This document shows positions 2,401 to 64,000 of a DNA stretch of 64,000 nucleotides, in pieces (position 1 is the first letter of the stretch; every line of letters begins with the position of its first letter). Source of the stretch: Bugula neritina (lineage: Eukaryota; Animalia; Bryozoa). The notes beneath the pieces are model-generated. The model ran no database searches, was not told where the DNA came from, and was given only the letters and a program-made list of their open reading frames with translations. Both the position numbers and the translations under genes were made by a program. The stretch lies in the NCBI GenBank assembly GCA_964035545.1, contig OZ037766.1, positions 33,381,723-33,445,722 on the forward strand, written 5' to 3'.

Positions 2401-5400
2401 TGCAGAGAGAGTGTGTGTGCAGAGAGTGTGTGTGTGTGCAGAGAGAGAGAGTGTGCAGAGAGAGTATGCAGAGAGAGTGTGTGTAGAGAGAGAGAGGGAG
2501 AGAGTGAGAGAGGGAGAGAGGAAGGGGGGAGGGAGGGAGGGAGGGAGGGAGAGAGGGAGAGAGGGAGTGTGTTCAGAGAGTCTGTGCAGAGAGAGTGAGT
2601 TACTATTCACTGCTAGCAAGTGCGCTGGTCTACTACCACTCCGTAATCATATCCGCATATAATAACCCGTAATGTAGTCACAAGAAAATTTTTAAAGTTA
2701 TTAATTATGTTTGGAAAATATTATAAGCGAGAAAAATTATAATGGTGCCAGCACTGGAATTAAAATGTTAACATGTCATTTTATAAACGTATAGTCTGAT
2801 AGTATAGTATATATAGTCTGTTAGTATAGTATAGGTTATATAGTATAGTATATGTAGGTTATATAGTATAGTATAGTATATAGTATAGTATATAGTATAG
2901 TATATAGTCTGAGAGTATAGTATATAGTCTGAGAGTATAGGAAATACTGATAGTCTGTTAATATAATTAGTGTATGTCACAGATACATGTAACTAACTGA
3001 TAGAGAATTATAAAAACGTTAGCGAATAATATCATATCATAGTATATCATATCATAGTATATCATATCATAGTATATCATATCATAGTATATAAGAGTGA
3101 TTATAGAGTGTATAATACGAGTGAAGTGGCATATACTGTAACATAATGTTACAGTAGAATTCAGTGTCAGAGTACTACTTATATTATGTAACATGCTATG
3201 TGATAGGCTAGCCGTCATGAGACTAGGCCATGTAATGGTGAAGATAGACAAACAAGCAGCAATCAAGCGTCACTCATCTTATTTAAAAAGGAGAAGTCAG
3301 ATTATAAACTCCATGACTTTCCTCAAACCAACGCCAAAACCCAGACAGCACGAGACACTTCGACCTTACAAGAGTTTTATACCAACAAGTGAGTGACTAC
3401 ATAACAGAGTATCACTATGAGTGAGTGACTACATAACTGAGTATCACTACGAGTGAGTGACTACATATCTGGTTATCACTACGAGTGAGTGACTACATAA
3501 CAGAGTATCACTATGGGTGAGTGACTACATATCTCAGTATCACTACGAGTGAGTGACTACATATCTGAGTATCACTATGAGTGAGTGACTACATATCTGG
3601 TTATCACTACGAGTGAGTGACTACATATCTGATTATCACTACGAGTGAGTGACTACATAACTGAGTATCACTATGAGTGAGTGACTACATAACTGAGTAT
3701 CACTACGAGTGAGTGACTACATATCTGGTTATCACTACGAGTGAGTGACTACATAACAGAGTATCACTATGAGTGAGTGACTACATATCTCAGTATCACT
3801 ATGAGTGAGTGACTACATATCTGAGTATCACTATGAGTGAGTGACTACATATCTGGTTATCACTACGAGTGAGTGACTACATAACAGAGTATCACTATGA
3901 GTGAGTGACTACATATCTCAGTATCACTATGAGTGAGTGACTACATATCTGAGTATCACTATGAGTGAGTGACTACATAACTGAGTATCACTACGAGTGA
4001 GTGACTACATAACTGAGTATCACTACGAGTGAGTGACTACATATCTGATTATCACTACGAGTGAGTGACTACATAACTGAGTATCACTACGAGTGAGTGA
4101 CTACATATCTGGTTATCACTACGAGTGAGTGACTACATAACAGAGTATCACTATGAGTGAGTGACTACATATCTCAGTATCACTATGAGTGAGTGACTAC
4201 ATATCTGAGTATCACTATGAGTGAGTGACTACATAACTGAGTATCACTATGAGTGAGTGACTACATAACTGAGTATCACTACGAGTGAGTGACTACATAT
4301 CTGATTATCACTACGAGTGAGTGACTACATATCTGAGTATCACTATGAGTGAGTGACTACATAACTGAGTATCACTACGAGTGAGTGACTACATATCTGA
4401 TTATCACTACGAGTGAGTGACTACATAACAGAGTAATACTATGAATGAGTGACTACATATCTGAGTATCACTATGAATGAGTGACTACATATCTGAGTAT
4501 CACTATGAGTGAGTGACTACATAACTGAGTATCACTACGAGTGAGTGACTACATATCTCAGTATCACTATGAGTATGCTCTCAACTATGAGTGATGGATT
4601 TAGTTTTACATGGGTGACGGGATAAGGCATAGGCGAAACTGAATGTAAGTCAAAAACTGAAAACTAACCTAATTTTATTACGGTGTTTGTGTAACTTTAC
4701 TCTGTCAACTACTAGTAGTTATTTGCTATGCACTATAAAGTGTGATATATATTTCTCTTGTTTACTCACAAAACTGTCATGTAACTGTTTGCAAATTATG
4801 GCTCACACAGTCTCTCCTAATTGATGTTAAGTAACATGACTAATGCTATCTATATACGTCATATCTCATACTGATAGAGGCGATGACAGCATATCTCATA
4901 CTGATAGAGGCGATGACAGCAAACTATAATTATAATTACATCATATAATAATGACATACAATGTAGAATAGCCTACATGTAGAGCACAGTACCCTGTGGA
5001 TAGAGGTGAAAATACTCTTAATGTGTACACCGATACAGTGCAGATGCACTATAAATACGTACGTGTTTAATTCTCAAAAGAGAAGTTGTGTTATCATAGC
5101 AGTATCAGGCTATTCTCACCAGGGCTTGTGTGTTATATATAATATAGCTACGGTGATATGTACTATATATATGTGTTATATATAATATAGCTAGGTGATA
5201 TGTACCATATATATGTGTTATATATAATATAGCTAGGTGATATGTACTACATGTATGTGTTATATATAATATAGCTACGGTGATATGTACTATATGTATG
5301 TGTTATATATAATATAGCTAGGTGATATGTACCATATGTATATGTTATATATAATATAGCTAGGTGATATGTACTATATATATGTGTTATATATAATATA

Positions 5401-11000: not shown

Positions 11001-14000
11001 CCAGCCAGAGTGTGGATGCAGGATTTGGTTCTGATGTCCCAGACTCGGCACGTGGAGTCTCTGCTGGTGGTGAGCAGCACATCTATGGTTGGGTGAATGT
11101 CAATGGATTGACAGGCTGACAGGTGTCCGTGGTAGTGTCTGATCACCTAGAGTGACAATTAGAGACAGGTGGTTGTAGACAGTGTGTATAGAGAGTGACA
11201 ACTAGAGACAGGTGGTTGTAGACAGTGTGTATAGAGAGTGACAACTAGAGACAGGTGGTTGTAGACAGTGTGTATACAGAGTGACAACTAGAGACAGGTG
11301 GTTGTAGACAGTATGTATAGAGAGTGACAACTAGAGACAGGTGGTTGTAGACAGTGTGTATAGAGAGTGACAACTAGAGTCAGGTGGTTGTAGACAGCGT
11401 TTATAGAGAGTGACAACTAGAGACAGGTGGTTGTAGACAGTGTATAGAGAGTGACAATTAGAGTCAGGTGGTTGTAGACAGTGTGTATAGAGAGTGACAA
11501 CTAGAGACAGGTGGTTGTAGACAGTGTGTATAGAGAGTGACAACTAGAGACAGGTGGTTGTAGACAGTGTATACAGAGTGACAACTAGAGACAGGTGGTT
11601 GTATATAACATACAGCAGCATACCTTGTTATACTCGAGGTCCCAGCACTTGACTTGTTTGTCTTCACCACAAGAGAAGAGGAAGGGGTGTCTAGGGGAGA
11701 CAATTACCCCTCTAACCGCACTGATGTGTCCAGTGAGAGACAACTTCAAAGTGCCAGTGGCAAGGTCAAATATTTTTATTATCCGGTCAGCTGAGCCTAG
11801 AAGTAGACATCAGTGTGAATAAGCTAGTAGAGATCAGTGTTAGTAACAGATGAGAGAATTCTAATGAATATAAGTATACAAGTGATGAGAAGATAAACCT
11901 GTTGTTACCTGTGGCAAACCATTGGTTCCCCGGTTCTACAGCAACACACCTCACCCAACCAGTGTGACCACTTATTACCTGCAACACACATGACCAGGTA
12001 AATGTATTGTATACTGAATACTTATTACCTGTAACACACATGACCAGGTAAATGTATTGTATACTGAATACTTACTACCTGTAACACACATGACCAGGTA
12101 AATGTATTGTATACTGAATACTTATTACCTGTAACACACATGACCAGGTAAATGTATTGTATAGGGGTAACGGGGGCACAACGGTCATAGGGGTACAAAA
12201 AGCCGGCCAAATTGTGAGAGAACTTATTAACTTAGAGTTGTGATTTTTTTTCTTAAAAAGATATTGACATAATTATTCAGCTTTTGTAGTTTCAACACTT
12301 GCGGAACATACGTGTTGAAAAGGCGAGTAAAAAACTGTTTTTGCCTACTTTTTGTAAATTTTTTAGGACGTCGTTAAAGCCTCATAACTTTTTACACTCA
12401 AAGACAAGAAGCCTAGATTTTACTAATATTGTTGCCATTGCTTGTCTCTACAATGCTTAACTAGTATAACAGCAAACACTGAAATAAATTTTCCTTGAGG
12501 CACATTTATTTTCGATTTGGCCACACGGGGCACAATGGGCCACGCTGACCGGGGCACAATGGGCCACCTGATTATTGCACCCTGATCACTGTTATTAGTT
12601 TGTTTGCCTAAAAAGTTGGTTGAACTGTTACTAAAATCTATAGATATAGCCATTTCTAACCTTTTTGTAAAATATCAAAGACATCATGGTAAGACTACAA
12701 AACTACAAGTTGAAGCTTCCCTAATATATACATCTGGTGAGGTTAAAGCTTTGCAATTTTATACATAATACAAAACACTCTGCTGTTGCTACTGGTAGAT
12801 AGTCATGATAATCATTATATATTACACCATTGAGGGAATATACATGTATTTGACTGAAATAAATTGTGATTTGCTCATTTGCTTCCCCTCTCCCCTCCGT
12901 ACTCCAGTCACAAACCTAAGTCATGCATGCACCTTAGCTACAGTTCATAGAAAAAAGTCTACTCGGGTTTTCGTAGTACACGTTACTAAAGTTGTTTTTT
13001 GATAAATGTTGCTCTGAAGTGAAAATAACAGAACATTTTAGTTCTAAACAGTAATGATAATGGCACTGCAGAGCCGAGTGGCGTGCGTTTGATTTTGCCT
13101 TCCTCTGCTAACCGTAGTAACACAAACTGTACAGCTAAAACATGAATTTTGCTGCAGATCTGAAAGAGAATCTTTATTTATTTGTAATATTAAATAAATA
13201 AAGATCAGATGTAACAAAATATACGCAAAATTTCAATATATTTGTTGTGTCCCATTGTACCCCGGTACCGGGGCACAATGGGCCGATTTTTTTGTCGTGA
13301 ACATTTCATTATTCTGAAAGTTGTGAGAGAGATAGAAACAACAAACTGATACCTGGAATAGACAACATATGCAGCATTAAGACTAGAGATTATTGAACTA
13401 GTAACTTGAAAAACAGACAAATGAGAGCAACAAATGCAAAATTCGGCCCGTTGTGCCCCCGTTACCCCTACTGACTAACTGACCCTGTATAGTTTCCAAG
13501 GAGCATGCCACTTAGGTTTTGGCATAGTTGGGGCTTTCTTTGGTACAAGCATCTTCTCGTTACCAACGGCAACAAGAGCTTTGCTGGACTTCTCTGCTGC
13601 CATATTAACTTCTGAGACTGCTGCCTGCACACCAGCTGCATACTGGTCAGCTGACGGGACCAGCTTGGATGAGTTTACAGGTTTAGATGCATCTAGAGAC
13701 ACAGAGTGACATATATTATATACACTATATACATAGAGATAGTAAATATACAGATATATAGTAATATACAGACATATAGTAATATACAGATACATAGTGA
13801 TATACAGATATATAGTGATATACAGATATATAGTGATATACAGATATATAGTGATATACAGATATATAGTGATATACAGATATATAGTAATATACAGATA
13901 TATAGTAATATACAGATATATAGTAATATACAGATATATAGTAAATATACAGATATATAGTAATATACAGATATATAGTAATATACAGATATATAGTAAT

Positions 14001-18739: not shown

Positions 18740-21700
18740 ATGAGTGGGTTAGAGTTGTCTGATCTATACAGAGATCTGCAAAGAGCAGGTCATGGAATCT
18801 CCAAGAATAGTCCCTTGATGACTAGTTGTGAGAGTGAGCTGTCGGAGTTGATTAGACAAATTGACATCATGTTCAAGTGAGTGCTTTCTCTCTACTGTAT
18901 CTCTGTACTGTATCTCTCTACTGTATCTCTCTACTGTATCTCTCTACTGTATCTCTCTACTGTATCTCTCTACTGCATCTCTCTACTGTATCTCTCTACT
19001 GTATCTCTCTACTGTATCTCTCTACTGTATCTCTCTACTGTATCTCTCTACTGTATCTCTCTACTATATCTCTCTACTGTATCTCTCTACTGTATCTCTC
19101 TCTACTGCATCTCTCTACTGTATCTCTCTACTGTATCTCTCTACTGTATCTCTCTACTGTATCTCTCTACTGCATCTCTCTACTGTATCTCTCTACTGTA
19201 TCTCTCTACTGTATCTCTCTACTGTATTAGATAGCTTTCATTAGTTAAAACTGTTGTGGTCACATCGCAGGTCTAAAAAGAATGAATGGCAGAGAGAAAA
19301 GACAACCTATGAGCTGAAAGTAGAAACTAAATCTCGGGAAGTACAGCTTCAGCAGGAGAGTATCGACAGGAAAAACCAGGAGGTAGAAATCAGTTGACTG
19401 TCTACGTTTCTGATTCATGTAGTCTGTATAGTATAGTATAACTAGTATATAGTCTGTGTATAACTAGTATATAGTATGTGTATAGTATGTATATAATCTG
19501 TATATAGTATGTGTATAACTAGTATATAATCTGTGTATAGTATGTATATAATCTGTATATAGTATGTGTATAACTAGTATATAATCATTCAGATAACTAG
19601 GCTGAGGGAACATGCCATGCTGGCAGAAAAGGAAGACAAGAAACTTATCTCAGACTACCAGCTGCAGGTGGAACAACTACATAAAGATCTGATGTTACTC
19701 AAGAAACAGTACGAGAAGATGAGAAACAAACATCAGAAAGAGAAGGTGAAACTGACAGCAGAGGTGAGTCATTAGACAAAGTGAAACTATGTAAAGCACA
19801 GTGACAAAGTGAAACTAACACACAATTACAAAGCACACAGTGACAGAGGTATTGAAATGTATTGAACATGTTTGTATAATATTAGTTAGACAGTTGCCTG
19901 ATTGAGTTAAATTCTACTACTGATAAAGCACAGGTAACATTCACCAGCTTAGTCTTGTTCATTTCATGAATTTATATTCAAATTACTTTCACTTCTCTGT
20001 TTACTAACATTCATTTGAATATGTTTTTCTCCTTTGTATTGGCCTAACTGTGGTCTTGTTAATGAGCTTTTATGAGTCCATTTCTTTCAACTCTAACAGA
20101 TGTTCATTGTGTTATGTAATAGTATAAACAACTTAGGTGTTGTAAACTATATTTTCAAATTTATATTGTGACATCAGATTGTGTCTCAAATCTGTGCTAT
20201 TTGAATTGTTAGTTTCTTAGACATACTATGTTAATTTATACACTGTGTAATATACTGTGTAATATACTGTGTAATATACTACCTATACAGTGTAATATAC
20301 TATGTTATACAGTGTAATATACTAACTACACTGTGTAATATACTAACTATACTGTGTAATATACTGTGTAATATACTGTGTAATATACTACCTATACAGT
20401 GTAATATACTGTGTAATATACTAACTATACTGTGTAATATACTGTGTAATATACTGTGTAATATACTACCTATACAGTGTAATATACTGTGTAATATACT
20501 AACTATACTGTGTAATATACAGTGTAATATACAGTGTAATATACTAACTATACAGTGTAATATACAGTGTAATATACCGTGTAATATACTAACTATACAG
20601 TGTAATATACTAACTATACTATGTAATATACTGTTTAATATACTATGTAATGTAGAAATATGAACTGGAGACGAATAATATGGTGAAAGATAAGAAGCAG
20701 CTGCAGTTTGAGGTGGACAGATTACTCAGTACTGTAAAGTCTCTAAGTGAGTATCTCGTACTTTAACTAGTTACTGAGTACTACTGGTTACTGAGTACTA
20801 CTAGTTACTGAGTGCTACTAGTTACTGAGTACTACTAGTTACTGAGTACTACTAGTTACTGAGTGCTACTAGTTACTGAGTATTACTGGTTACTGAGTGC
20901 TACTAGTTACTGAGTATTACTATATACTGAGTACTACTAGTTACTGAGTACTACTAGTTACTGAGTACTACTAGTTACTGAGTACTACTGGTTACTGAGT
21001 ACTACTAGTTACTGAGTACTACTAGTTACTGAGTACTACTATATACTGAGTATTACTAGTTACTGAGTACTACTGGTTACTGAGTACTATTAGTTACCGA
21101 GTACTACTGGTTACTGAGTACTACTGGTTACTGAGTACTACTAGTTACTGAGTACTACTGGTTACTGAGTACTACTGGTTACTGAGTACTACTAGTTACT
21201 GAGTACTACTAGTACTATAGTATGTAGAACCCTTGAAATGGATATTCCAGTAAACCAACTTTCCACTCTGCTTTCAGCTGAGAAGTGTGAGTTGATGGAA
21301 CAGCAAGGCAGCACCTATCAAGACCAGCTGGTCAAACGTAACCAAATGATTGGTGACATTGAGGCTAACCTCAGGTCTGTACGGCTGTTTAGTGTACTGT
21401 CTGATATTGAGGGTGACTCTCGCTCCACCCTTCTATTCTGATAGCCTAAGAAACCCACTTGTTCTGTACTTGTACCTGTCATTCTACAGAATTACTATCT
21501 CTTTAGAACTTCTGGTAGTGTTGTATTACACAGTACATTGGAGTTGTCTGCACACTGTAACAAACATTACTTCTATGTAAGTATGTAGTGTAGGTACATA
21601 CAGCGTAAGTATATGTAGTGTAGGTATATAGTGTAAGTACACAGTGTAAGTATACAGTGTAAGTATATAGTGTAAGTACATAGTGTAAGTGTATAGTGTA

Positions 21701-24700
21701 AGTATATAGTGTAAGTACATAGTGTAAGTATGTAGTGTAAGTATATAGTGTAAGTGTGTAGTGTAAGTATATAGTGTAAGTACATAGTGTAAGTATATAG
21801 TGTAAGTGTGTAGTGTAAGTATATAGTGTAAGTGTATTACAGAGCCGAACTGGCCACCATCAGATCTCAACTACACGAGGCGGAGGATAGAGAATCGGAG
21901 AGAAACGTGGAGATTGCTCGTCTCAAGGCCGACCTGAATCACTGGAAGAATAAGTCAACCAAACTGAGTAAAGAACTGCAGACGTCTGAGGAGCTGCTGA
22001 AGAAAGCAAATTCTACAGTTGGTGTGAGTAGAGAGAGAATATTCTACAGTTGGTGTGAGTAGAGAGAGTATATTCTACAGTTGGTGTGAGTAGAGAGAGT
22101 GTATTCTACAGTTAGTGTGAGTGTAGAGAGTATATTCTACAGTTAGCATGAGTGTAGAGAGAGAGTATATTCTACAGTTAGTGTGAGTAGAGAGAGTATT
22201 CTACAGTTAGTGTGAGTGTAGAGAGTATATTCTACAGTTAGCGTGAGTGTAGAGAGAGAGTATATTCTACAGTTGGTGTGAGTAGAGAGAGTATATTCTA
22301 CAGTTAGTGTGAGTAGAGAGAGTATATTCTACAGTTAGTGTGAGTAGAGAGAGTATATTCTACAGGTAATGTGAGTAGAGAGAGTATATTCTACAGTTAG
22401 TGTGAGTGTAGAGAGTATATTCTACAGTTAGTGTGAGTGTAGAGAGTGTATTCTACAGTTAGTGTGAGTTGATGTCAATGTAAATGGAGATGAACATGTA
22501 TATGATTCACTGTTCTCTACAGACTCTACAGTCACACAATGATGGACTGAATGCAGAATTAAAGGCACAGGGCAGCAACCTACACATGGCCACCAGGGGG
22601 CAGCACTGCCAAGAGAAGGAAATGGTCAAACTTAGAGATATGATTATTGAGAAAGATAAGACTATCCGGTGAGTGTTGAGATTGAGAACAGTACATCTCT
22701 CTACTCTCTACTATCATATGATATATACTTATACAGTACATCTCTCTACTCTCTACTATCATATGATATATACTTATACAGTACATCTCTCTACTATCAT
22801 ATGATATATACTCATACAGTACATCTCTCTACTCTCTACTATCATATGATATATACTCATACAGTACATCTCTCTACTCTCTACTATCATATGATATATA
22901 CTCATACAGTACATCTCTCTACTCTCTACTATCATATGATATATACTCATACAGTACATCTCTCTACTCTCTACTATCATATGATATATACTTATACAGT
23001 ACATCTCTCTACTCTCTACTATCATATGATATATACTCATACAGTACATCTCTCTACTCTCTACTATCATATGATATATACTCATACAGTACATCTCTCT
23101 ACTCTCTACTATCATATGATATATACTCATACAGTACATCTCTCTACTCTCTACTATCATATGATATATACTCATACAGTACATCTCTCCACTCTCTACT
23201 ATCATATGATATATACTTATACAGTACATCTCTCTACTATCTACTATCATATGATATATACTCATACAGTACATCTCTCTACTCTCTACTATCATATGAT
23301 ATATACTCATACAGTACATCTCTCTACTCTCTACTATCATATGATATATACTCATACAGTACATCTCTCTACTCTCTACTATCATATGATATATACTTAT
23401 ACAGTACATCTCTCTACTATCTACTATCATATGATATATACTCATACAGTACATCTCTCTACTCTCTACTATCATATGATATATACTTACACAGTACATC
23501 TCTCTACTCTCTACTCTCATATGATATATACTCATACAGTACATCTCTCTACTCTCTACTATCATATGATATATACTCATACAGTACATCTCTCTACTCT
23601 CTACTATCATATGATATATACTCATACAGTACATCTCTCTACTCTCTACAGTCTACTATCATATGATATATACTCATACAGTACATCTCTCTACTCTCTA
23701 CTATCATATGATATATACTCATACAACTTGTTCAACACTTTAGCTCACTGCTGGATAAAAACCACCTGAATGAGTCAACAGCACTGGATGTGTTGAAACA
23801 GGACCTTCTGAAAGTTGATTTGGAAAACAGGTACTTGTCTTTAGACTATTGTGTCTATACATCTAGTAGATTATGTCTATACATCTAGTAGATTATGTCT
23901 ACACATCTAGTAGATTATGTCTATACATCTAGTAGATTATGTCTATACATCTAGTAGATTGTGTCTACACATCTAGTGAATTATGTCTACATACAGTATA
24001 TCGTAATGTTCTATCAGAGAACTGAAGGCCAAAGAAGCAGAATTTAGGACAGAAGTTACCAGACTACAAGCTGAATGTACTTCACTCATCAAGAGACTGG
24101 ATAATACTGACCAGGAGTGTCTCTCATTGAGAGAACAACTCCACAAGAAGGTGAGTTTCTCAACTGTAATACGCTGTGATGCATTTACTGTACATACTAT
24201 AACTCACACTTTCTATGTGATCTGTGTTTAAGGAAACTGAGCTAAGAGAGACGGAGGACCAGAGACTGCGAGACCGTGACGCTAATCTTAATGAGGTAGT
24301 ATAGTGTGTATAATACTGTATTACTTTATATAATACTGTATTACTTTATATAATACTGTATTACGTACAAGTGTATAGTATAATACTGTATTACTTTATA
24401 TAATACTGTATTACTTTATATAATACTGTATTACTTTATATAATACTGTATTACTTTATATAATACTGTATTAATTTATATCATACTGTATTACTTTATA
24501 TAATGCTGTATTACTTTATATAATACTGTATTACTTTATATAATACTGTATTACATTATATAATACTGTATTACTTTATATAATACTGTATTACTTTATA
24601 TAATACTGCATTACTTTATATAATACTGTATTACTTTATATAATACTGTGTTACATTATATAATGCTGTATTACTTTATATAATACTGTATTACTTTATA

Positions 24701-27700
24701 TAATACTGTATCACTTTATATAATGCTGTATTACTTTATATAATACTGTATTACATTATATAATACTGTATTACATTATATATTACTGTATTACTTTATA
24801 TAATACTGTATTACATTATATATTACTGTATTACTTTATTTAATACTGTATTACTTTATATAATACTGTATTACATTATATATTACTGTATTACTTTATA
24901 TAATACTGTATTACATACAAGTGTACAGTATAATACTGTATTACGTACAAATGTATAGTATAATACTGTATTACATACAAGTGTATAGTATAATACTGTA
25001 TTACATACAAGTGTATAATATAATACTGTATTACTTACGAGTATATAATATAATACTGTATTACATACGAGTGTATAATATAATACTGTATTACATACAA
25101 ATGCACTAATTCATGAGACTCTTTCAGCTACAGGAGAAAATATTCAGTCTGAAATCAGATCATGATGCTGAAGTTACAGAGTTGAGGAAAGAGTTGCAGA
25201 ATGTTAGAGCTCAGTTGTGTGAGACTTTGAGGTCAGTGAAGTATAGTAGTGGTACTAACTTACAATAGTACTAGTAGTAGTACTAGTAGTAGTACTAGTA
25301 GTAGTACTAGTAGTAGTAGTAATAGTAGTTGTAGTTGTAAGATTACTGGTAGTAGTAGTAGTACTAGTGGTAGTAGCAGCAGTAGTAATAGTAGTTGTAG
25401 TTGTAAGATTACTGGTAGTAGTAGTAGTACTAGTGGTAGTAATATTACTGGTAGTAGTAGTAGTACTAGTGGTAGTAATATTACTGGTAGTAGTAGTAGT
25501 ACTAGTGGTAGTAATATTACTGGTAGTAGTAGTAGTACTAGTGGTAGTAGTATTACTGGTAGTAGTACTACTACTACTACCAGTAATATTACTACCACTA
25601 CTACTACTACTACTACTACCAGTAATATTACTACTTAGTAATATTACTGGTAGTAGTAGTAGTACTAATAGTAGTAGTAGTAGTAGTAGTAGTAGTAATA
25701 TTACTGGTAGTAGTGCTAGTAGTAGTTATAGTAGTCTACTATAGCTGATGCTTTCAATTCCCAGTCGGAACAACCAGACTTGTCTCATGACAACTTTCTC
25801 TGAGGGAGACGATTCCCGTATGGATGCTGTGAACGCTGCGATTGGTGAAAGTCATGCTGCAGCAGATCTGAGGCTAACCCAACAGCAACTTACTGCTCTG
25901 AGGCTAGAAAATCAGCATCTACAGGAGCAGGTATTTATATACTACTCTTTATATACTCTCTGTCTATATTCTACTGTCTATATACTACTTTCTATATACT
26001 ACTGTCTATATACTACTGTCTATATACTACTGTCTATATACTACTGTCTATATTCTACTGTCTATATACTACTGTCTATATACTACTCTCTATATACTAC
26101 TCTCTATATACTACTCTCTATATACTACTGTCTATATACTACTGTCTATATTCTACTGTCTATATACTACTTTCTATATACTACTCTCTATATACTACTG
26201 TCTATATACTACTCTCTATATACTACTCTCTATATACTACTGTCTATATACTACTGTCTATATACTACTGTCTATATACTACTGTCTATATACTACTGTC
26301 TATATTCTACTGTCTATATATGTACTACTATATACTCTGCAGGTACTGAACTCTAAAGATGCAGGACACAGCGTAAGACAAGCACAAAGGCATCTCACCG
26401 ATATCCAGAGCTCATATGACAACACAGTAGAGAAGTTAAAGGTAGTTATACTTCAGTGTCTGTGTTATACTTGAGTGTTTGTGATATACCTGAGTGTCTG
26501 TGATATATCTGAGTGTTTGTGATATATCTGAGTGTCTGTGATATACCTGAGTGTTTGTGTTATAGCTTAGTGTCTGTGTTATATCTTCGTGTCTGTGATA
26601 TACCTGAGTGTTTGTGTTATACCTGAGTGTTTGTGATATACCTGAGTGTCTGTGTTATACCTTAGTGTTTGTGATATACCTGAGTGTCTGTGTTATACCT
26701 GAATGTCTGTGTTATACCTGAGTGTCTGTGTTATACCTGAGTGCCTGTGTTATACCTGAGTGTCTGTGTTATACCTGAATGTCTGTGTTATACCTGAATG
26801 TCTGTGTTATACCTGAGTGTCTGTGTTATACCTGAGTGTCTGTGTTATACCTGAGTGTCTGTGTTATCTGTGTTATACCTGAGTGTCTGTGTTATACCTG
26901 AATGTCTGTGTTATACCTGAGTGTCTGATATACCTGAGTGTCTGTGTTATACCTGAGTGTTTGTGTTATACCTGAATGTCTGTGTTATACCTGAGTGTTT
27001 GTGATATACCTCAGTGTCTGTGTTATACCTGAATGTCTGTGATATATATACCTGAGTGTCTGTGTTATACCTGAGTGTTTGTGATATATCTGAGTGTTTG
27101 TGATATAGCTGAGTGTTTGTGATATACCTGAGTGTCTGTGTTATATCTGAGTGTCTGTGATACAGGCGGATAACGATAGACTCCACGCAGATGTTGCTAA
27201 ACTCAGAAGTGAAATGAAGACCAAGGAGGAGAGTTATCATCACAGATACAGGAAGTTACTGCAGGATATGCAGCTCGACATTGAAAGGTGAGTCAGTGTA
27301 TATTACTAAGTGAGAGATTATATTACTAGGTGAGAGAGTATATTACTAGGTGAGAGTGTATATTACTAGGTGAGAGTATATATTACTAGGTGAGAGTGTA
27401 TATTACTAGGTGAGAGAGTATATATTACTAAGTGAGAGAGTATATATTACTAGGTGAGAGTGTATACTACTAGGGGAGAGAGTATATATTACTAGGTGGG
27501 AGTGCATATATTACTGGGTGGGAGGGTATATTACTAGGTGAGAGAGTATATATTACTAAGTGAGAGAGTATATATTACTAGGTGAGAGTGTATATTACTA
27601 GGTGGGAGAGTATATTACTAGGTGAGAGAGTATATTACTAGGTGAGAGAGTATATATTACTATACGTATGCTACAGGAGAGAAGCCAGGCTGCTAGAAGA

Positions 27701-30700
27701 ACACACTCTCAATCAGTCGAGGCTCCAGGACTCACAAGATGCCAAACTGGAAGTCCGGGAGGCCGTCTACCGACAGGAAATGGGGTCTCTACGAGCTCAG
27801 AAGAGTCTGCTGATGGAGCGTCTTGGAGAGTCTGTAGATGAGGTTAGCAGATACAAGGAGGAGAATAGAGGTGAGTATTCTGTGACTACAGACCATGTGC
27901 GTCTCTTACAGCGTATACTCACACAGCTGTGTTATTCACTGTAGAGTATAGACTATACACTGTAGAGTATAGACTATACACTGTAGAGTATAGACTATAC
28001 ACTGTAGAGTATAGACTATACACTGTAGAGTATAGACTATACACTGTAGAGTATAGACTATACACTGTAGAGTATAGACTATACGCTGTAGAGTATAGAC
28101 TATATGCTGTAGAGTATAGACTATACGCTGTAGAGTATAGACTATACGCTGTAGAGTATAGACTATACGCTGTAGAGTATAGACTATACGCTGTAGAGTA
28201 TAGACTATACGCTGTAGAGTATAGACTATACGCTGTAGAGTATAGACTATACGCTGTAGAGTATAGACTATACACTGTAGAGTATAGACTATACACTGTA
28301 GAGTATAGACTATACACTGTAGAGTATACACTATACACTGTAGAGTATAGACTATACACTGTAGAGTATAGACTATACACTGTAGAGTATAGACTATACG
28401 CTGTAGAGTATAGACTATACGCTGTAGAGTATACACTATACACTCAGTCTACCCTGTGTACTGTATAGCCTCTGTTCTCTCTCATCATAGACTTGGCTCA
28501 TGAAAATCAGCTGATGTCGTCGTTCACTGGTAACATCTCGGACATGTTGGCCATGGCCAGCTCTAGTAAATGTGATGCCAACAACAGTCAGTATAACTCG
28601 GCATTCGATGAACAGACAACAGGTTCGTTTCCCTCAACTCACTTTACTCTCGACATGTTTGTCGTTTAGTCTGTCTGTCTGTCTATCTGTTAGTCTGTCT
28701 GTTAGTCTGTCTGTATGTCTCTAACTGTTTGCTGATTTGCTCCTGCAGACTTCCTGCCATTTGGTGCGAGTCCCGACCCGGTGAGACGTCTGATTGGCGA
28801 TGAGACGCTCAACAGCACTCTCCGAGACAGTCACACTCACTCCAGTCCCTCAAAGTCTGCCAGGTCTAATGACCACCACAACTCTACCTCCACACCAAAG
28901 AAAGCCAGCATGAACCGGTCTCCATACGACACACGAGGTCAGGTTTCAAGGTCGTCTCGCTCTCACAACTCCTCAAAGTCTTCCAGCCACAAGTCCAGGT
29001 CTTCCAATCACGACCAGCGTGCAGCGTCGCCCCTCAGCAGGAAGTCTCAGTCTGCCCGCACCTCCCCGGCACACGGGAAAGGCTCCAGAAACGTATCTCC
29101 CAGGTAAGAGAGCTGCTGGTTCCGGACTAGTCACTTGTGTTTTGTGAATACTTTTGCCATATCGCACATTCATTGCCTGTAGTTACTGTCACACCTCCTC
29201 TGTCACACCTCCTCTGCCACACCTCCTCTGTCACACCTCCTCTGTCACACCTTCTCTGTCACACCTCCTCTGTCACACCTCCTCTGTCACACCTACTCTG
29301 TCACACCTCCTCTGTCACACCTCCTCTGTCACACCTCCTCTGTCACACCTCTGTCACACCTCCTCTGTCACACCTCCTCTGTCACACCTTCTCTGTCACA
29401 CCTCCTCTGTTACACCTACTCTGTCACACCTACTCTGTCACACCTACTCTTTCACATCTCCTCTGTCACATCTACTCTGTCACACCTACTCTGTCACATC
29501 TCCTCTGTAGCATCTACTCTTTCACATCTACTCTGTCACATCTACTCTGTCACACCTACTCTGTCACACCTCCTCTGTCACACCTCCTCTGTCACACCTA
29601 CTCTTTCACATCTCCTCTGTTACATCTCCTCTGTCACATCTCCTCTGTTACACCTACTCTGTCACACCTCCTCTGTCACACCTCCTCTGTCACATCTACT
29701 CTGTCACACCTACTCTGTCACACCTCCTCTGTCACACCTCCTCTTTCACACCTCCTCTGTCACACCCACTCTGTCACACCTCCTCTTTCACACCTACTCT
29801 GTCACACCTACTCTGTCACACCTCCTCTGTCACACCTACTCTGTCACATCTACTCTGTCACACCTACTCTGTCACACCTCCTCTGTCACACCTCCTCTTT
29901 CACACCTCCTCTGTCACACCCACTCTGTCACACCTCCTCTTTCACACCTACTCTGTCACACCTACTCTGTCACACCTCCTCTGTCACACCTACTCTGTCA
30001 CACCTACTCTGTCACACCTCCTCTGTCACACCTTCTCTGTCACATCTACTCTGTCACACCTACTCTGTCACATCTCCTCTGTCACACCTCCTCTGTCACA
30101 TCTCCTCTGTCACACCCACTCTGTCACATCTCCTGTCACACCTCCTCTGTAGCATCTACTCTGTCACACCTACTCTGTCACATCTACTCTGTCACACCTC
30201 CTCTGTCACACCTACTCTTTCACACCTACTCTGTCACACCTCCTCTGTCACACCTACTCTGTCACACCTCCTCTGTCACATCTACTCTGTCACACCTACT
30301 CTGTCACATCTCCTCTGTAGCATCTACTCTGTCACACCTACTCTTTCACATCTCCTCTGTCACACCTCCTCTGTCACACCTACTCTGTCATACCTCCTGT
30401 CACGTATCTGTCACACCTCTGTAGCATCTCCTCTGTCACATCTCCTCTGTCACACCTCCTCTGTCTCACCTACTCTGTCACATTACAGGTCCAACCCAGA
30501 GCCCGATGTCTCCCCTACAAGTGGGCGTGGTTTACCCTTGTCTAGACTGTCTGCTATTCGTGGAGCTGAAGATAGCTACGCTGAAAGTCTTAATGTAAGT
30601 CCAATAGTCTGAGTTTATGTCTCTCTCTTCATTTACTTCAACTCTGTCTCACTTGCGTACCAGCCACAGTGATCTCTTCGTAAGAATGGTTAGCAGTTCT

Positions 30701-30874
30701 CTCAACTATCTGTAGTCCTCCTCCACTGGATCTCTCGTTGCTGAGCGGTTTCTTCGTGATCAGCGACAGAGAACTTTAGCCTTAGAGCAGATGTTGGATC
30801 AGCATATCCAGGGGTTACGCGAGGACAGCAGGCTACTAATGCAAGACAGTGATTCCTACTTGCACAGTTTTTGA
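18740..30874 (+). CDS. CEP63: Centrosomal coiled-coil protein, CEP63/DEUP1 family
   Basis: Exons 18740-18876, 19271-19382, 19593-19763, 20656-20746, 21278-21374, 21843-22023, 22523-22668, 23744-23830, 24018-24150, 24233-24295, 25128-25231, 25765-25930, 26343-26441, 27166-27287, 27677-27870, 28491-28622, 28749-29103, 30489-30594, 30716-30874, all in frame. N-terminal TSCESELSELIRQIDIMFKSKKNEW and C-terminal AERFLRDQRQRTLALEQMLDQHIQGLREDS match the conserved CEP63/DEUP1 end motifs. Confidence 0.88.
18888..30482. repeat. Series of distinct intron-specific arrays in the CEP63-like gene (interleaved with exons)
   Basis: 18888-19227 (13 bp), 20238-20655 (~12 bp), 20766-21212 (17 bp), 21577-21835 (13 bp), 22009-22468 (~30 bp), 22688-23724 (45 bp), 23855-23990 (22 bp), 24308-25100 (20 bp), 25245-25735 (AGT-based), 25935-26335, 26445-27160 (19 bp), 27286-27660 (~21 bp), 27937-28443 (21 bp), 29185-30482 (14 bp). 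Confidence 0.92.
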
Positions 30875-35049: not shown

Positions 35050-35544
35050 CTTTGTATGAGGTTGTTTTATATCTCCTGTGAAGTATTGTAACATATTTAT
35101 AACTAATTATAATATAACCTAGTGTAATATAGTATAATATACACTAGTAGTTTATATAGTATAATATATACTGAAACTTCACCTTATTCATATCAGGGGG
35201 ACAAACAAGTGCTGACTGTTTAGAACCAGCACATGTAGATGCCTCTCCACTCCTATTCCGAGTCTGTTATGATAATTTAGTTTTCTTATAAACTAAGATT
35301 ACTCAAAATAATCGTTAGTTCAGGAAAGATAAGATGGCAATTGGATGATATTGAGAATGGAAAATCTATAATACTTATAAGCTGTAAGTGATGTGAATGA
35401 CCTCCTGTATATTCTAAAGATCCAAATAACTAGATTGAGGTTCACTGACCTTTATATTGAGTTATTAGGCTACTCTAGTATCACACATTATAATGGAAAA
35501 TATTCTTATCTCTTTCACCTTTCATTTTCTTCATCATTTATATA

Positions 35545-36459
35545 GGGGTAACGGAGGGGGGGAGGCACAACGGGCTGAATTTTGAATTTTTTGCTCTTAT
35601 TCGTCTGTTTTTTAAGTTATTACAGGTATCAGTTTGTTGTTTCTATCTCTCTCACAACTTTCAGAATAATGAAATTTTCATGACAAAAAATTCGGCCCAT
35701 TGTGCCCCGGTACCGGGGTACAATGGGCCACTGGGTGGGACACGACAAATATATTGAAACTTTGCTGATTTTGTTGCATTTGATCTTTATTTATTTAACA
35801 TTAAAAATAAATAAAAATGCTCTTTCAGATCTAAAGCAAAAACCATGTTTTAGCTGTACAGTTTGTGCCACCACAGATAACAAGGGGAGGTAAAATTGAA
35901 CGCACATCACTCAGTTCTACGGTGCCATTATCATTACTGTTTAGAACTAAAAATGTTTTTTTATTTTCACTTCACACGAACTTTTATTGAAAAAAACTTC
36001 AGTAACTTGTGCTACAATGTTCCAGGTGGACTCTTTTCTATGAATTGTAGTTAAGGTGGCTGAAGTTTGTGGCTGAAGTACGGAAAGGGGGAGGGAGGAA
36101 ATCAGCAAATCACAATTTATTTTAGTCAAATACATGTATATCTCCTCAATGATATAATGTATAATGAATATCATGACTATTTACTAGTAGCAACAGCAGA
36201 GTGTTTTGTATTATGTATAAAATAGCAAAGCTATAACTTCACCAGATGTACATATTAGGGGAGCTTCACCTTGTAGTCTTGTAATCTTACCATGATGTCT
36301 TTGATATTTTACAAAAAGGTTAGAAATGGCTATATCTATAAATTTTAGTAACATTTTAACCAAATTTTTGGGCAAACAAACTAATAACAGTGATCAGGGT
36401 GCAATAATCAGGTGGCCCATTGTGCCTCGGTCAGCGTGGCCCATTGTGCCCGGTGTGGC
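35545..36459. mobile_element. Second, inverted and truncated copy of the 12164-13468 DNA transposon
   Basis: Starts TA|GGGGTAACGG...GGCACAACGGG and follows the reverse complement of 13468 back to ~12520 (shared pseudo-ORF MAISI.FSN...[13 protein letters not shown]). It is cut off by a TA-rich tract. Confidence 0.88.
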
Positions 36460-36517: not shown

Positions 36518-36783
36518 TTACGCTCACATTTAATGCTCATCAATGACATTAAATGATTGAGCACTCTCACCATGGTCACAAACTCAAGCTGCTAACATTT
36601 AGCAATGCTCGTGACTCTTAGGTGACCCCTAGAGTCACTTGAGCACTCTGGCTTGGGTTTACACACCTTTTAAATATGCTTTAGTAAAACTATAAGTTTC
36701 TACTATTGCAAAAGTGTGGGCCATGGTACTCTGCTCTGTGCTGATGAGGGGACAAATCCCGAAACAGCTGCTGTCCACAGATT

Positions 36784-36863
<80 letters not shown>

Positions 36864-37125
36864 AATCTGTGGACAGCAGCTGTTTCGGGATTTGTCCCCT
36901 CATCAGCACAGAACAGAGTACCATGGCCCACACCTTCGCAATAGTAAAACTTATAGTTTTCCTAAAACATATTTAAAAGGTGTGTAAACTCAAGCCAGAG
37001 TGCTCAAGTGACTCTAGGGGTCACCTAAGAGTCACGAGCATTGTAAAATGCTAGCAGCTTGAGTTTGTGACCATGGTGAGAGTGCTCAATCATTTAATGC
37101 CATTGATGAGCATTAAATGAGAGCG

Positions 37126-37128
<3 letters not shown>
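36518..37128. repeat. About 610-bp palindrome: two ~270-bp inverted arms around a 74-bp (AT)n spacer, flanked by TA tracts
   Basis: 36518-36786 is the near-perfect reverse complement of 36861-37128, with scattered substitutions. Confidence 0.92.
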
Positions 37129-46489: not shown

Positions 46490-47040
46490 AGGACTAGATA
46501 CAGGATACAGGGCATAGGATACAGGATATAGGTATAGGTATAGGTAGATATAATATATAGGGTATAGGGTATATAGGGTATAGGATATAGGATATAGGGT
46601 ATAGGGTATAGGTATAGGTATAGGTAGATATAATATATAGGGTATAGGATATAGGGTATAGGGGATAGGATACAGGATATAGGGTATAGGATATAGGATA
46701 TAGGATATAGGGTATAGGGTATAGGGTATTATAGGATATAGGATACAGAATATAGGATACAGGGTATAGGATACAGGGTATAGGGTATAGGATATAGGGT
46801 ATAGGATACAGAGTATAGGATATAGGATACAGGATATAGGGTATAGGGTACAGGATATAGGGTACAGGATATAGGATATAGAGTATAGGGTACAGGGTAT
46901 AGTGTATAGGATATAGGGTATACGGTATAGTGTATAGGATATAGGATATAGGGTATAGGGTATATAAGATATAGGGTATAGGATACAGGATATAGGATAT
47001 AAGGTATATAGAGTATAGGGTATAGAGTATAGGGTATAAC
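46490..47040. repeat. (TATAGG/GATACAG)-type simple repeat immediately 3' of the channel stop codon
   Basis: Directly visible; it abuts the stop at 47042. Confidence 0.88.
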
Positions 47041-47041
47041 G

Positions 47042-50000
47042 TTATGAAGCTTCAGCTGGGGCCACTTTTAGTTGCAAAGATGAGACTGATGCATTCTGTT
47101 TTCTTTTTCTGCAGATGCACTTGAACACCGCCTTTACACCGAACTCTAGAAACTCAAACAGAGTGAGAATACTCGCACCAACACACAGTCCCAAAGTTCC
47201 ACCTAAACTCGCTAAAACGCAAAGTACTATTACAATATGACGATATCTTAGAAATTTCAACAGCGTTCTATAGGATTGCATTACTTTATCAGATGGACAG
47301 ACATGAATAACTGCATATAATATGTTCAACAACTCGTTTACAGGGTTTGACTAAGAACTGACCTATCATATCTCGAACGTCATAAGTGATTTCTTCGTCA
47401 AGTCTTTGGAAAGACATTTTCCCGTAGTATATGTTTAAGAGGATGTAGTTGTTTCGGTAAGATTCTACGAGATCTGTAATAGAATCAAAAGAGTTTACAA
47501 ACAACAGTTGGAAACAAGAGAAAGTGGAGCTAAAGGAGTTTGTATTAACATGAAACAGTGCAACATGAAAGAGTAGGTTTATATCCACATGAACCAGTGC
47601 AGCATGAAAGAGTAGGTTTATATTAACATGAAACAGTGCAACATGAAAGAGTAGGTTTATATCCACATGAACCAGTGCAGCATGAAAGAGTAGGTTTATA
47701 TTAACATGAAACAGTGCAACATGAAATAGTGAGTTTGTATCAACAAGCACATGAGGAGCATGAGACACGAGTTACAGAATAAGTCACCCTGAGGCATTTG
47801 GTAGAGGTTGATGTACTTGGTGCTGGGAAACTTAGTGCTGGCGAGTTGCGCCGAAAATTCTGAAACTCTGCAAGCATCGTGACAGTCACATGACTTTAAT
47901 CCTGCAGGATCAGATGCAAAGCTTCCTGAATAGATACGAGAGACTACACATGTATAATATAATATATAGTATACAGTACAGTATAGTATATAGTATAGTA
48001 TATATTATAGTATATAGTATAGTGTATAGTATAGTATAGTATGGTATAGTATGGTATGGTATGGTATGGTATGGTATGGTATGGTATGGTATGGTATGGT
48101 ATGGTATGGTATGGTATGGTATGGTATGGTATGGTATGGTATGGTATGGTATGGTGTGGTATGGTGTAGTATAGTATATTATAGTATAGTATGTACAGTA
48201 TAGTATAGTATAGTATAGTATAGTATGGTATAGTATAGTATAGCATAGCATAGTATAGTATAGCATAGTATAGTATATATAAGTATATAGTACTAAGTAT
48301 GTATAGTATAAAGTAGAGTATATATAAGTATATAGTACTAAGTATGTATAGTATAAAGTAGAGTATATATAAGTATATAGTACTAAGTATGTATAGTATA
48401 ATATATAGCTTTAGATCTACGTACTCATGGCTGGGGTTGAACAGTTTAGCATAGTTGGTAGCAGGCACGGTGCTGTTCCATTCAGAGCTGAAACCAAGGA
48501 ATGAAAAAATAGAAATATATACAAACTAGAGTAATATATTCGATCTAATACGTATCAAAGTAGAAATATATACAAACTAGAGTATTATATTCAATCTAAT
48601 ACGTATCAAAATCACTAAAGAGGAAACACAATTCTCTTGACTCAATTTATGAAAATCTGAAAGACTGTGAAGTATAAAAATACTTGTATAATGCTGTGCC
48701 ATGACTGCAGCTTTTATGACCTTGAAATGCAATTATACATTTCAGGAAGAGTTGTGGAGTTGTGTACCCACCAGGCTGAAGAGCGTCTCTGCACCCACAC
48801 CTGTTGATGACGTATGCTGTCTTACACTCAACCTGGCAGGCTGAGTAGGAGTAGTGGTGGAAATAGTGCAAAGGGTTGAGATTCCTTTCCGTGTCAAAGC
48901 AGTCAGCACGGTTGTTGTCTGCCGGAGGTGGTTTCCTGTTAGTCTACAGTTTTATCATCATTTGTGAGTAGCTAGATGACACAGTTATACTGTGGGTAGC
49001 TAGATGACACAGTTATACTGTGAGTAACTAGATGATACATTTATACTGTGAGTAACTAGATGACACAGTTATACTGTGAGTAGCTAGATGACACAGTTAT
49101 ACTGTGAGTAGCTAGATGACCCAGTTATACTGTGAGTAGCTAGATTACACAGTTATACTGTGAGTAGCTAGATGACACAGTTATATTGTGAATAACTAGA
49201 TGACACAGTTATACTGTGAGTAGCTAGATGACACAGTTATACTGTGAGTAACTAGATGACACAGTTATACTGTGAGTAGCTAGATTACACAGTTATACTG
49301 TGAGTAGCTAGATGACACAGTTATACTGTGAGTAGCTAGATGACACAGTTATACTGTGAGTAGCTAGATTACACAGTTATACTGTGAGTAGCTAGATGAC
49401 ACAGTTATACTGTGAGTAGCTAGATGACACAGTTATACTGTGAGTAGCTAGATGACACAGTTATACTGTGAGTAGCTAGATTACACAGTTATACTGTGAG
49501 TAGCTAGATGACACAGTTATACTGTGAGTAGCTAGATTACACAGTTATACTGTGAGTAGCTAGATGACACAGTTATACTGTGAGTAGCTAGATGACACAG
49601 TTATATTGTGAGTAACTAGACAGGATGTCACATGTAGTTATACCCCCTAAACAAACTTTGCTGCACTGTAGGCCGTAACGTAAAAGGTGAGAGTCATTTT
49701 TACAAATTTCCGAGCGTCCTGTACGGCATTGTGTTACATTAGGATCAAGCACTGCTTATTTCTAAAGGTTGTGGTGGGCTCCTTTGGACAGGAAGAAGTT
49801 CACATCAATTCATTGGATAGAAATGTTTAATAAGGTGTCATAAATCATACCCAATAACACACTTTGAGAACTTCAGCCCGGACACATTAAAAATGGCTGA
49901 AATTTTACATTACGGCCTACGGTGCTCAAAGTGTGCCTAGGGGGATATGGTGAGCTGTTGACACATATACTAAACTGTTGACACATATACTAGACTGTTG

Positions 50001-54413: not shown

Positions 54414-55541
54414 TGACTTTTTTATGCTAAACAGATATAATATAATTGCGATGCTTGAAATAAGTACAATATAAAATATTGCACATACAATTTTAAAATT
54501 GCAACTTTTTTGAACGGATAAAACATGTAAGCGCAACTAGGAGAAAGAATTATGATGGAGTCAGATGGTGATACAGAATTATTGTATAAACTGTGCAAAT
54601 TGTAAACAGGTATGTGTAAACTGTATTCTAAAGCTATCAGAAATACTTGAACTATTTAAATAATGAAGATATTTCCGGAAATGCTATTTACAAAAAAGCT
54701 TCTACATGTATGACTTGGAATTTGTTTCCCAACTTTACTTAGGGTATACAAACCATTTTGGAAGTCATAAAATACCATTTCTTTTTTATATTTCTTTAAT
54801 CACCAAATACAACTCATGATTTCACTCTTTGCATAATTATTTTATTGGTGATCAATAAGTTACTATCCTAGCAGACATACGAACATACTGCAATATTGTA
54901 TGTAAAACACAGCGTCATCTTATGGGTAAAATAACTTCACTATAACATCTCCTTGCATGGCTAAAGCAATGCTTTGGTTTATAAATATTCCACAGGCAGG
55001 TAATAAGTTATTACCTATAATAATTGAGTTAAACTTAGACTTATTTGTTGAAGCAAATCAACAGGATCTTGATTTTCATACCCATTCATATGGAGTGTCC
55101 ATATCAATATAATCATACTCAATGTCACTCTAAAATATGCAAAGTGTGTTTACTGTAAGTTAGAGATGCGTCACTCATACACCACACAGTCTTTATGTGG
55201 GATCAACTACTACCTGTTATTTATCTCTAATGTATTGTATTTACCTCTAATGTATTGTATTTATATCTAATGTATTGTAAAGAACAAATCAATGCTATCT
55301 TGAGGAATTTGTTTGCGTTCAGGTGGGAATGAAAGATAATACAACTATAAGGCAAGAATAAAAAGCACTGGTTATTAGGCAGTTTGGTCAAAAGCTAATT
55401 ATTGATATTCAATATTGCTGCAGTTGAAAAAGAATATTTAAACTGCATAATATAAATGCCATTACATTACACCCTGTTTACACACATGTTAAATGAGAAG
55501 CTGATGAGAACTGAGCTTTCAAGCTGTAAGCAGAGATTAAG

Positions 55542-63200: not shown

Positions 63201-64000
63201 CTCTATAGTATTACAGTATATATCTCTATAGTATTACAGTATATATCTCTATAGTATTACAGTATATATCTCTATAGTACTACAGTATATATCTCTATAG
63301 TACTACAGTATATATCTCTATAGTATTACAGTATATATCTCTATAGTATTACAGTATATATCTCTATAGTATTACAGTATATATCTCTATAGTATTACAG
63401 TATATATCTCTATAGTATTACAGTATATATCTCTATAGTACTACAGTATATATCTCTATAGTATTACAGTATATATCTCTATAGTATTACAGTATATATC
63501 TCTATAGTACTACAGTATATATCTCTATAGTATTACAGTATATATCTCTATAGTACTACAGTATATATCTCTATAGTATTACAGTATATATCTCTATAGT
63601 ATTACAGTATATATCTCTATAGTATTACAGTATATATCTCTATAGTATTACAGTATATATCTCTATAGTATTACAGTATATATCTCTATAGTACTACAGT
63701 ATATATCTCTATAGTATTACAGTATATATCTCTATAGTACTACAGTATATATCTCTATAGTATTACAGTATATATCTCTATAGTACTACAGTATATATCT
63801 CTATAGTATTACAGTATATATCTCTATAGTATTACAGTATATATCTCTATAGTATTACAGTATATATCTCTATAGTACTACAGTATATATCTCTATAGTA
63901 TTACAGTATATATCTCTATAGTATTACAGTATATATCTCTATAGTATTACAGTATATATCTCTATAGTACTACAGTATATATCTCTATAGTATTACAGTA
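57255..64000. repeat. 23-bp intronic satellite of more than 6.7 kb (about 290 copies, open at the window end)
   Basis: ATCTCTATAGTA(T/C)TACAGTATAT, beginning about 15 nt after the exon-5 donor at 57241. Confidence 0.97.

What the first reader, a model, noticed from the sequence alone, without database searches (positions are those of the whole stretch)
22009..22468. Repeat unit is a copy of the exon end plus the 5' splice site: about 15 decoy donors
Seen: the exon ends ...ATTCTACAGTTGGT|GTGAGTAGAGAGAG at 22023, and the array repeats ATTCTACAGTT(G/A)GTGTGAGT(A/G).AGAGAG about 15 times. The first downstream copies match the true junction, including ~14 exonic bases. This shows the array was seeded from the junction itself. 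Inference: the spliceosome must choose the first of many equivalent donors, since use of the ~30-nt-shifted copies would insert residues, shift frame or hit the stop at 22060-22062.
Basis: partly seen in the sequence, partly recalled or inferred. Interest (0 to 1): 0.8.

Follow-up and report, generated by a model that had tools for sequence, protein, structure and literature searches.

The report
Splice-donor minisatellite in bryozoan CEP63 intron
In a centriole gene (CEP63-like) of a likely bryozoan, the end of an exon and its splice signal are repeated 14 more times into the next intron; using any spare signal would create a stop codon, so the cell likely uses the first, making this an ordinary example of a repeat type already known from human F7 and lancelet genes.

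Summary
A 31-nt array (22010-22469, 15 units) starts in the last 14 nt of exon 6 of a 19-exon CEP63-like gene. Of 14 downstream units, 13 keep GTGAGT but only 3 match the real site exactly. The junction 22023>22523 is supported by gap-free alignment to a Watersipora protein, by the same intron, array-free, in 5 of 5 related loci, and by a spliced contig from a close relative. Every spare donor gives a premature stop, so there is no isoform ladder. Which donor this organism uses was not observed. This is the known F7/CBS/6-16 and lancelet 'mirage' type (PMC1557585, PMC3087553), and the scan noted it before in at least 17 genomes. Here 32 of 43 modelled introns carry their own array; only 3 cross a junction, against about 13 under a crude random model. 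Best reading: a tolerated by-product. One open point: the exon's last codon differs from the relative's (GGT against AAT) and shares its state with array units 2, 3 and 9.

The parts
18740..30874 (+). CEP63-like gene, 19-exon model, 884 aa, no internal stop, all 18 introns GT-AG
   Evidence: 62% identity (568/914) to P0001, named CEP63-like of Watersipora subatra; P0001 passes Pfam PF17045; exon 1 alone hits it below cut-off, exons 6 and 7 alone give no hit
21843..22023 (+). Exon 6 (181 nt), ends in phase 0 on codon GGT
   Evidence: X1 contig fits 21840-22020
22010..22469 (+). 31-nt minisatellite, 15 anchored units; unit 1 holds the last 14 exonic nt and the real donor
21999..22029 (+). Likely original seed: 25 exonic + 6 intronic nt (inferred); makes the array 15 whole units
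   Evidence: spacer consensus matches the 11 exonic nt before unit 1 at 6 of 11 letters and 10 of 11 purine/pyrimidine, against 2 and 4 of 11 for the 11 nt after the array
22021..22029 (+). Authentic 5' splice site GGT|GTGAGT
   Evidence: colinearity with P0001 and L001-L005; X1 junction geometry
22052..22469 (+). 13 spare GTGAGT donors (GT at 22055, 22086, 22117, 22183, 22212, 22243, 22278, 22309, 22340, 22371, 22402, 22433, 22464); unit 5 dead (22148); extra CAG|GTAATG at 22366
22060..22062 (+). In-frame TAG that closes read-through past unit 2
22357..22387 (+). Unit 12: variant with AAT before the donor (same three letters as the relative X1) and the highest donor score
22470..22522 (+). 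Non-repeat remainder of intron 6 (53 nt) with the acceptor CAG at 22520-22522
22523..22668 (+). Exon 7 (146 nt)
   Evidence: X1 loose end reads into it

Best explanation
This is a locus-specific minisatellite whose first unit spans the exon 6/intron 6 junction of a CEP63-like gene; it likely arose by tandem duplication of the junction in a short intron, and the spliceosome likely keeps using the first donor, so the array would be a tolerated passenger. Shown: the array, the junction, the stops after every spare donor, the array's absence from orthologous introns, and that most introns in the window carry unrelated arrays. Inferred: (1) a 31-nt piece, probably 25 exonic + 6 intronic nt, was duplicated and expanded by slippage or unequal exchange; (2) the 11 nt no longer under coding constraint drifted to an AG-rich spacer; (3) the most upstream donor wins, as shown for human F7; (4) leakage to spare donors gives premature stops that nonsense-mediated decay would clear (pathway recalled, not tested).
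For: Array and register. Junction: no gap across it against P0001; same 181-nt exon, phase and intron position with a CAG|GT donor and a 356-372 nt intron in 5 of 5 loci, with no array in that intron (one unrelated 37-nt repeat elsewhere in L001); X1 contig has three letters after 22020 and then exon 7. Stops after all spare donors. Background: 32 of 43 modelled introns carry an array, 18,393 of 26,710 intronic bases; the unit shares no 14-mer with the rest of the window. Junction-crossing arrays number 3 (2 donor, 1 acceptor) against 6.6 expected per side under random seeding, P about 0.0003 for the total, which argues against targeting or benefit. Precedent for first-site use: PMC1557585; lancelet mirages do not disturb splicing: PMC3087553.
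Against: No RNA from the window's own organism was seen. X1 is a relative (7 listed differences plus 2 unlisted over 181 letters), its RNA status is a guess by the tool, its intron was not covered, and contigs drop rare forms. In human 6-16 and CBS, two spare sites are used as well (PMC1557585 Introduction). Unit 12 outscores the real donor in the small matrix. The random-seeding null is crude, and for CEP63 plus PLRG1 alone it is weaker (P about 0.006 for at most 3).
Confidence: 0.8

Rival explanations
1. The array exchanges sequence with the exon copy, and changes that arose in intronic units were copied into the last codon of exon 6 (AAT to AGT to GGT, Asn to Ser to Gly). This can hold together with the best explanation.
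For: The relative X1 has AAT at this codon, the window GGT. The 15 units carry AGT 8, GGT 4 (units 1, 2, 3, 9), AGC 2 and AAT 1, so both end states and the one-step intermediate are in the array. The orthologues end in Lys or Gln, which makes A at the first two positions the likelier old state. Of the 7 other listed exon differences, 5 are synonymous.
Against: Sharing is equally explained by new duplications of unit 1 (exon to intron), which needs no flow into the exon. Two differences in 14 nt at about 4% divergence are not unusual (hand estimate, P about 0.1). Unit 12's AAT can be a fresh mutation. X1's intron was not seen, and only one haplotype is in hand.
Confidence: 0.2
2. The spare donors are used at a regulated level and send CEP63 transcripts to decay, so that copy number tunes gene dose.
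For: Three spare sites tie with the real one and one scores higher; all lead to premature stops; partial use of spare sites is reported for 6-16 and CBS.
Against: The array is absent from 5 of 5 orthologous introns. 15 of 18 introns of this gene carry unrelated arrays. Junction-crossing arrays are scarce, not enriched. No read shows use of a spare donor.
Confidence: 0.07
3. Each unit acts as a 5-nt micro-exon or recursive splice point, since a CAG lies 5 nt before each spare donor and unit 12 has CAG|GT directly.
For: Unit acceptors score 3.8-6.3 bits against 5.8 for the real acceptor in the window's matrix.
Against: A 5-nt exon shifts the frame. The upstream spacer is purine- and AG-rich, a poor polypyrimidine tract (seen in sequence; rule recalled). 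The intron is only 499 nt. The X1 contig shows no insertion.
Confidence: 0.04
4. The array is an assembly artefact.
For: Short-period repeats are hard to assemble; the exact copy number is unverified.
Against: Units differ from each other in a patterned way (units 4-5 resemble 7-8). Run X2 holds the exon-into-array piece without differences, plus a 31-letter record at 2.9 times single-copy depth, matching the 3 internal GGT units (flanking letters inferred). X2 may be the window's own source, so this is not independent.
Confidence: 0.02

Closest known systems
Human F7 IVS7 37-bp VNTR (Borensztajn et al. 2006, PMC1557585; seen: abstract, Introduction, Discussion)
   Same: First unit spans the exon-intron boundary; donor repeated downstream; the paper shows the most upstream site is used
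   Different: F7 unit has 4 exonic nt and 5-9 identical copies; here 14 (probably 25) exonic nt, 15 units, only 3 identical spare sites, all leading to stops; no functional test here
Human CBS IVS13 (15-20 units), interferon-inducible 6-16 (25 pseudo-sites), LAMIN B2 and PDGF minisatellites (seen only as described in the Introduction of PMC1557585)
   Same: Same architecture and similar copy number
   Different: CBS and 6-16 also use two spare sites; use of spare sites is unmeasured here
Lancelet 'mirage' minisatellites: Adh3, troponin C, globins BflGb6/9, PGBD5 (PMC3087553 and PMC3902484; seen: matching passages)
   Same: Invertebrate tandem copies of an exon-intron boundary, at donor or acceptor side, 10-160 bp units, no reported effect on splicing
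   Different: Here likely a bryozoan, in a window where about three quarters of modelled introns hold an array. In BflGb6 the boundary units are excluded from homogenisation, whereas here the exon copy is identical over 20 nt to units 2, 3 and 9

Membership tests
Junction-spanning minisatellite (F7 IVS7 type / lancelet mirage) | Head-to-tail array of minisatellite-sized units | tested here: met
   period 31, 15 anchored units
Junction-spanning minisatellite (F7 IVS7 type / lancelet mirage) | Terminal unit spans a real exon-intron boundary | tested here: met
   junction 22023>22523 supported by P0001, L001-L005 and X1
Junction-spanning minisatellite (F7 IVS7 type / lancelet mirage) | Splice signal repeated in the intronic units | tested here: met
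   13 of 14 keep GTGAGT; 3 identical to the real site
Junction-spanning minisatellite (F7 IVS7 type / lancelet mirage) | Unit is local, not a dispersed repeat | tested here: met
   no shared 14-mer elsewhere in the 64-kb window; rest of the genome not available
Junction-spanning minisatellite (F7 IVS7 type / lancelet mirage) | Authentic (first) site carries all or most splicing | tested here: inconclusive
   one contig of a relative uses this junction, its intron unseen; intact ORF requires it
Junction-spanning minisatellite (F7 IVS7 type / lancelet mirage) | Copy-number polymorphism or instability | not testable with these tools
   one haplotype; contigs collapse arrays
CEP63/Deup1 | PF17045 N-terminal coiled coil and C-terminal CEP152-binding coiled coil (PF25771) | tested here: met
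   both on P0001 (PF25771 just at cut-off); the window model aligns to P0001 end to end at 62%. CEP63 versus Deup1 was not resolved
Micro-exon or recursive-splice array | Units spliced as exons or used as ratchet points | tested here: inconclusive
   acceptor-like CAG in each unit; no inclusion in the X1 contig; no reads from this organism

The most novel reading that the evidence does not exclude
The intronic array acts as a mutation reservoir for the protein: unit turnover has written two successive amino-acid changes (Asn to Ser to Gly) into the last codon of exon 6 and moved the donor's exonic part away from consensus. In a genome where most introns grow their own minisatellite, selection keeps arrays off splice sites about four-fold, which would give a genome-wide natural test of 5' splice-site choice.
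Probability: 0.2. Interest if true: 0.55.

Novelty: new member of a known kind. Interest (0 to 1): 0.22.

Why it matters
As a single case it adds little: the type is known from human and lancelet genes, and the scan holds 22 similar notes. Its value is as test material. The array puts identical, weaker and stronger donors in one row, all reporting mis-splicing by a stop codon, in an animal far from mammals, so RNA with NMD blocked would test whether the first-site rule of F7 holds there. The wider pattern, an own array in 32 of 43 introns that mostly stops short of the splice sites, deserves a genome-wide look. I did not find it described for bryozoans in the listings or in the passages of PMC13326412; its supplements were not read.

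Tried and rejected
No whole genome is held, so there is no genome-wide count. No RNA holder on record was listed; X1 is a guessed RNA run with 0.06 of the words. A second homologue search found only P0001 again among 5558 candidates. RNA structure as the chooser was rejected: the region folds at z -5.1 against dinucleotide shuffles, but the consensus unit is ordinary against unit-shuffled multimers (z 0.1), and the real donor is not more accessible than the spare ones at three window sizes. Other donors at the exon end (GT at 22018, 22022, 22028) score lower, and only 22024 gives the gap-free alignment. The first gene model had three wrong anchors and was corrected. The minus-strand ENaC-like model had two wrong boundaries and was corrected to 0 stops; the weight matrices still contain those two sites, while the intron counts did not change. 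Searches for array-to-exon conversion at a splice junction gave no matching title or abstract start; only listings were seen. The scan's notes held nothing for this genome or for P0001.

Full report
Observation. The array is real. TRF gives period 31 and 14.6 copies at 22010-22469. Anchoring on the 9-nt start of the unit gives 15 units of 31 nt, with one of 29 and two of 35. A 20-nt pattern with up to 3 mismatches has 15 matches, all here, against 0.04 expected. Unit 1 is the exon end itself. Of the 14 downstream units, 13 keep GTGAGT and 3 (units 2, 3, 9) are identical to unit 1 over 20 nt.

The gene. The exon 21843-22023 found one relative among 107 candidates, P0001, which the source names CEP63-like of Watersipora subatra. 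P0001 carries PF17045 and, just at cut-off, PF25771. A 19-exon model (18740-30874) has GT-AG introns, 884 residues and no internal stop, and aligns to P0001 at 62% with no gap across the junction in question. The organism is therefore likely a bryozoan; that is an inference from one named protein.

The junction. Three lines support 22023>22523. First, the gap-free alignment. Second, 5 of 5 related loci (L001-L005, 75-76% amino-acid identity) have the same 181-nt exon, a phase-0 CAG|GT donor and a 356-372 nt intron with no tandem array in it. The five loci are close to each other and count as about one outgroup. Third, a 3300-nt contig of run X1 fits the exon to 22020, has three more letters (AAT where the window has GGT), then reads exon 7; upstream it reads exon 5. 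X1 is a relative, its RNA status is the tool's guess, and its intron was not covered. It fixes the boundary but does not show a choice among spare donors.

Consequences of the spare donors. Unit 2 adds 31 nt, shifts the frame and stops early in exon 7. Every later site examined includes the TAG at 22060-22062. There is no in-frame ladder, so a working protein needs the first donor. In a weight matrix built from the window's 42 other modelled donors, the real site scores 6.8 bits (true donors range from -0.2 to 12.6), units 2, 3 and 9 tie, unit 12 scores 7.85 and the AGT units 5.6. Sequence strength therefore does not single out the first site. Predicted RNA structure does not either. Position is the remaining candidate, which is what the F7 experiments showed in mammalian cells (PMC1557585; abstract, Introduction and Discussion read). 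Transfer to this animal is inference.

Origin. The array ends on a 20-nt partial unit. If the 11 exonic nt before unit 1 are counted, it becomes 15 whole units of 25 exonic + 6 intronic nt. The spacer consensus matches those 11 nt at 6 letters and 10 purine/pyrimidine classes, against 2 and 4 for the 11 nt after the array. Among 2645 11-mers of the coding sequence, 6.8% reach 6 letters and 0.5% reach both marks. The second mark was chosen after seeing the data, so this is suggestive only. Removing 14 units leaves an intron of about 59 nt, shorter than the array-free introns of the window (82-761 nt).

Context. About 51% of the window is masked as tandem repeat. In five modelled genes, 32 of 43 introns hold an array, together 18,393 of 26,710 intronic bases. 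Two arrays cross a donor: this one, and 3388-4574, whose donor X1 confirms and which holds 35 GTGAGT. One crosses an acceptor (PLRG1-like, 11970-12163; name recalled from the translation). The median distance from donor to array is 19 nt. If one unit were seeded at random over each collapsed intron, 6.6 overlaps per side would be expected; P is 0.023 for donors, 0.005 for acceptors and 0.0003 together. The null is crude and the sample is one window, but it points to junction-crossing arrays being survivors, not a targeted class. Donor-like rows also arise without junction seeding (18 GTAAGT in CEP63 intron 5, 13 GTGAGA in intron 14), though these score below their real donors.

The last codon. 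The 15 units carry AGT 8 times, GGT 4 times (including the exon), AGC twice and AAT once. X1 has AAT; P0001 has Lys and the loci Gln. The exon's G at the first codon position is shared with 3 units and absent from 11, so the exon copy likely took part in turnover after the array arose. The direction is unknown: fresh duplication of unit 1 explains it without any flow into the exon. Two of X1's nine differences were not listed by place, so X1's letters near the exon end are not fully known. In lancelet BflGb6 the boundary units are excluded from homogenisation (PMC3087553 passage), which makes the identity here mildly notable. I give intron-to-exon flow 0.2.

Artefact check. Run X2 holds the exon-to-array piece with no difference and a 31-letter record at depth 330 against 113.8; the ratio 2.9 fits the 3 internal GGT units. 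X2 may be the window's source, so this shows consistency only.

Comparison and verdict. It works like, and meets the testable defining features of, the junction-spanning minisatellites of human F7, CBS, 6-16, LAMIN B2 and PDGF (the last four seen only in the Introduction of PMC1557585) and the lancelet mirages (passages of PMC3087553 and PMC3902484). First-site use is inconclusive here and polymorphism untestable. The scan holds 22 such notes in at least 17 genomes; these are unchecked and are not counted as support. New member of a known kind; interest 0.22.

Noticed in passing
window 446-57256: 32 of 43 modelled introns in five genes carry their own tandem array (69% of intronic bases); after removal some introns keep only 9-30 nt of non-repeat sequence. 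Related loci L001-L005 have almost none.
   Followed up: partly
window 3388-4574: Second donor-crossing array: 32-nt unit, about 37 copies, 35 GTGAGT, one exonic base. X1 joins 3388 to the exon at 6606, skipping an exon-like stretch near 4983-5127.
   Followed up: partly
window 11970-12163 (minus strand): Acceptor-crossing array in a PLRG1-like gene (name recalled): 50-nt unit, about 4 copies, holding the intron end and 9 exonic bases.
   Followed up: partly
window 21576-21837 and 27298-27662: CEP63 introns 5 and 14 hold rows of donor-like motifs (18 GTAAGT; 13 GTGAGA) that do not come from their junctions.
   Followed up: partly
window 22523-22531: A second in-frame CAG 9 nt into exon 7 could be an alternative acceptor (4.7 against 5.8 bits); the X1 contig uses the first.
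   Followed up: partly
window 57256-64000: A 23-nt array of at least 293 copies (6.7 kb, runs off the window) starts 15 nt after the donor at 57240 of a plus-strand ENaC/DEG-like gene (name recalled).
   Followed up: no
window 47000-52820 (minus) and 55540-57240 (plus): Two divergently oriented ENaC/DEG-like paralogues (name recalled from the translation; not searched).
   Followed up: no
window 36525-37127: Near-perfect inverted repeat of about 260 nt around a short AT microsatellite, possibly a MITE-like element.
   Followed up: no
window 12164-13470 and about 35500-36450: Two related copies, in opposite orientation, of a roughly 1-kb element with similar inverted ends, one inside PLRG1-like intron 4; seen by eye, likely a DNA transposon.
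   Followed up: no
arrays of the modelled introns: Units tend to fold slightly better than unit-shuffled controls (median z -0.76; 12 of 30 below -1, 2 above +1), which may hint that self-complementary seeds expand more easily.
   Followed up: partly
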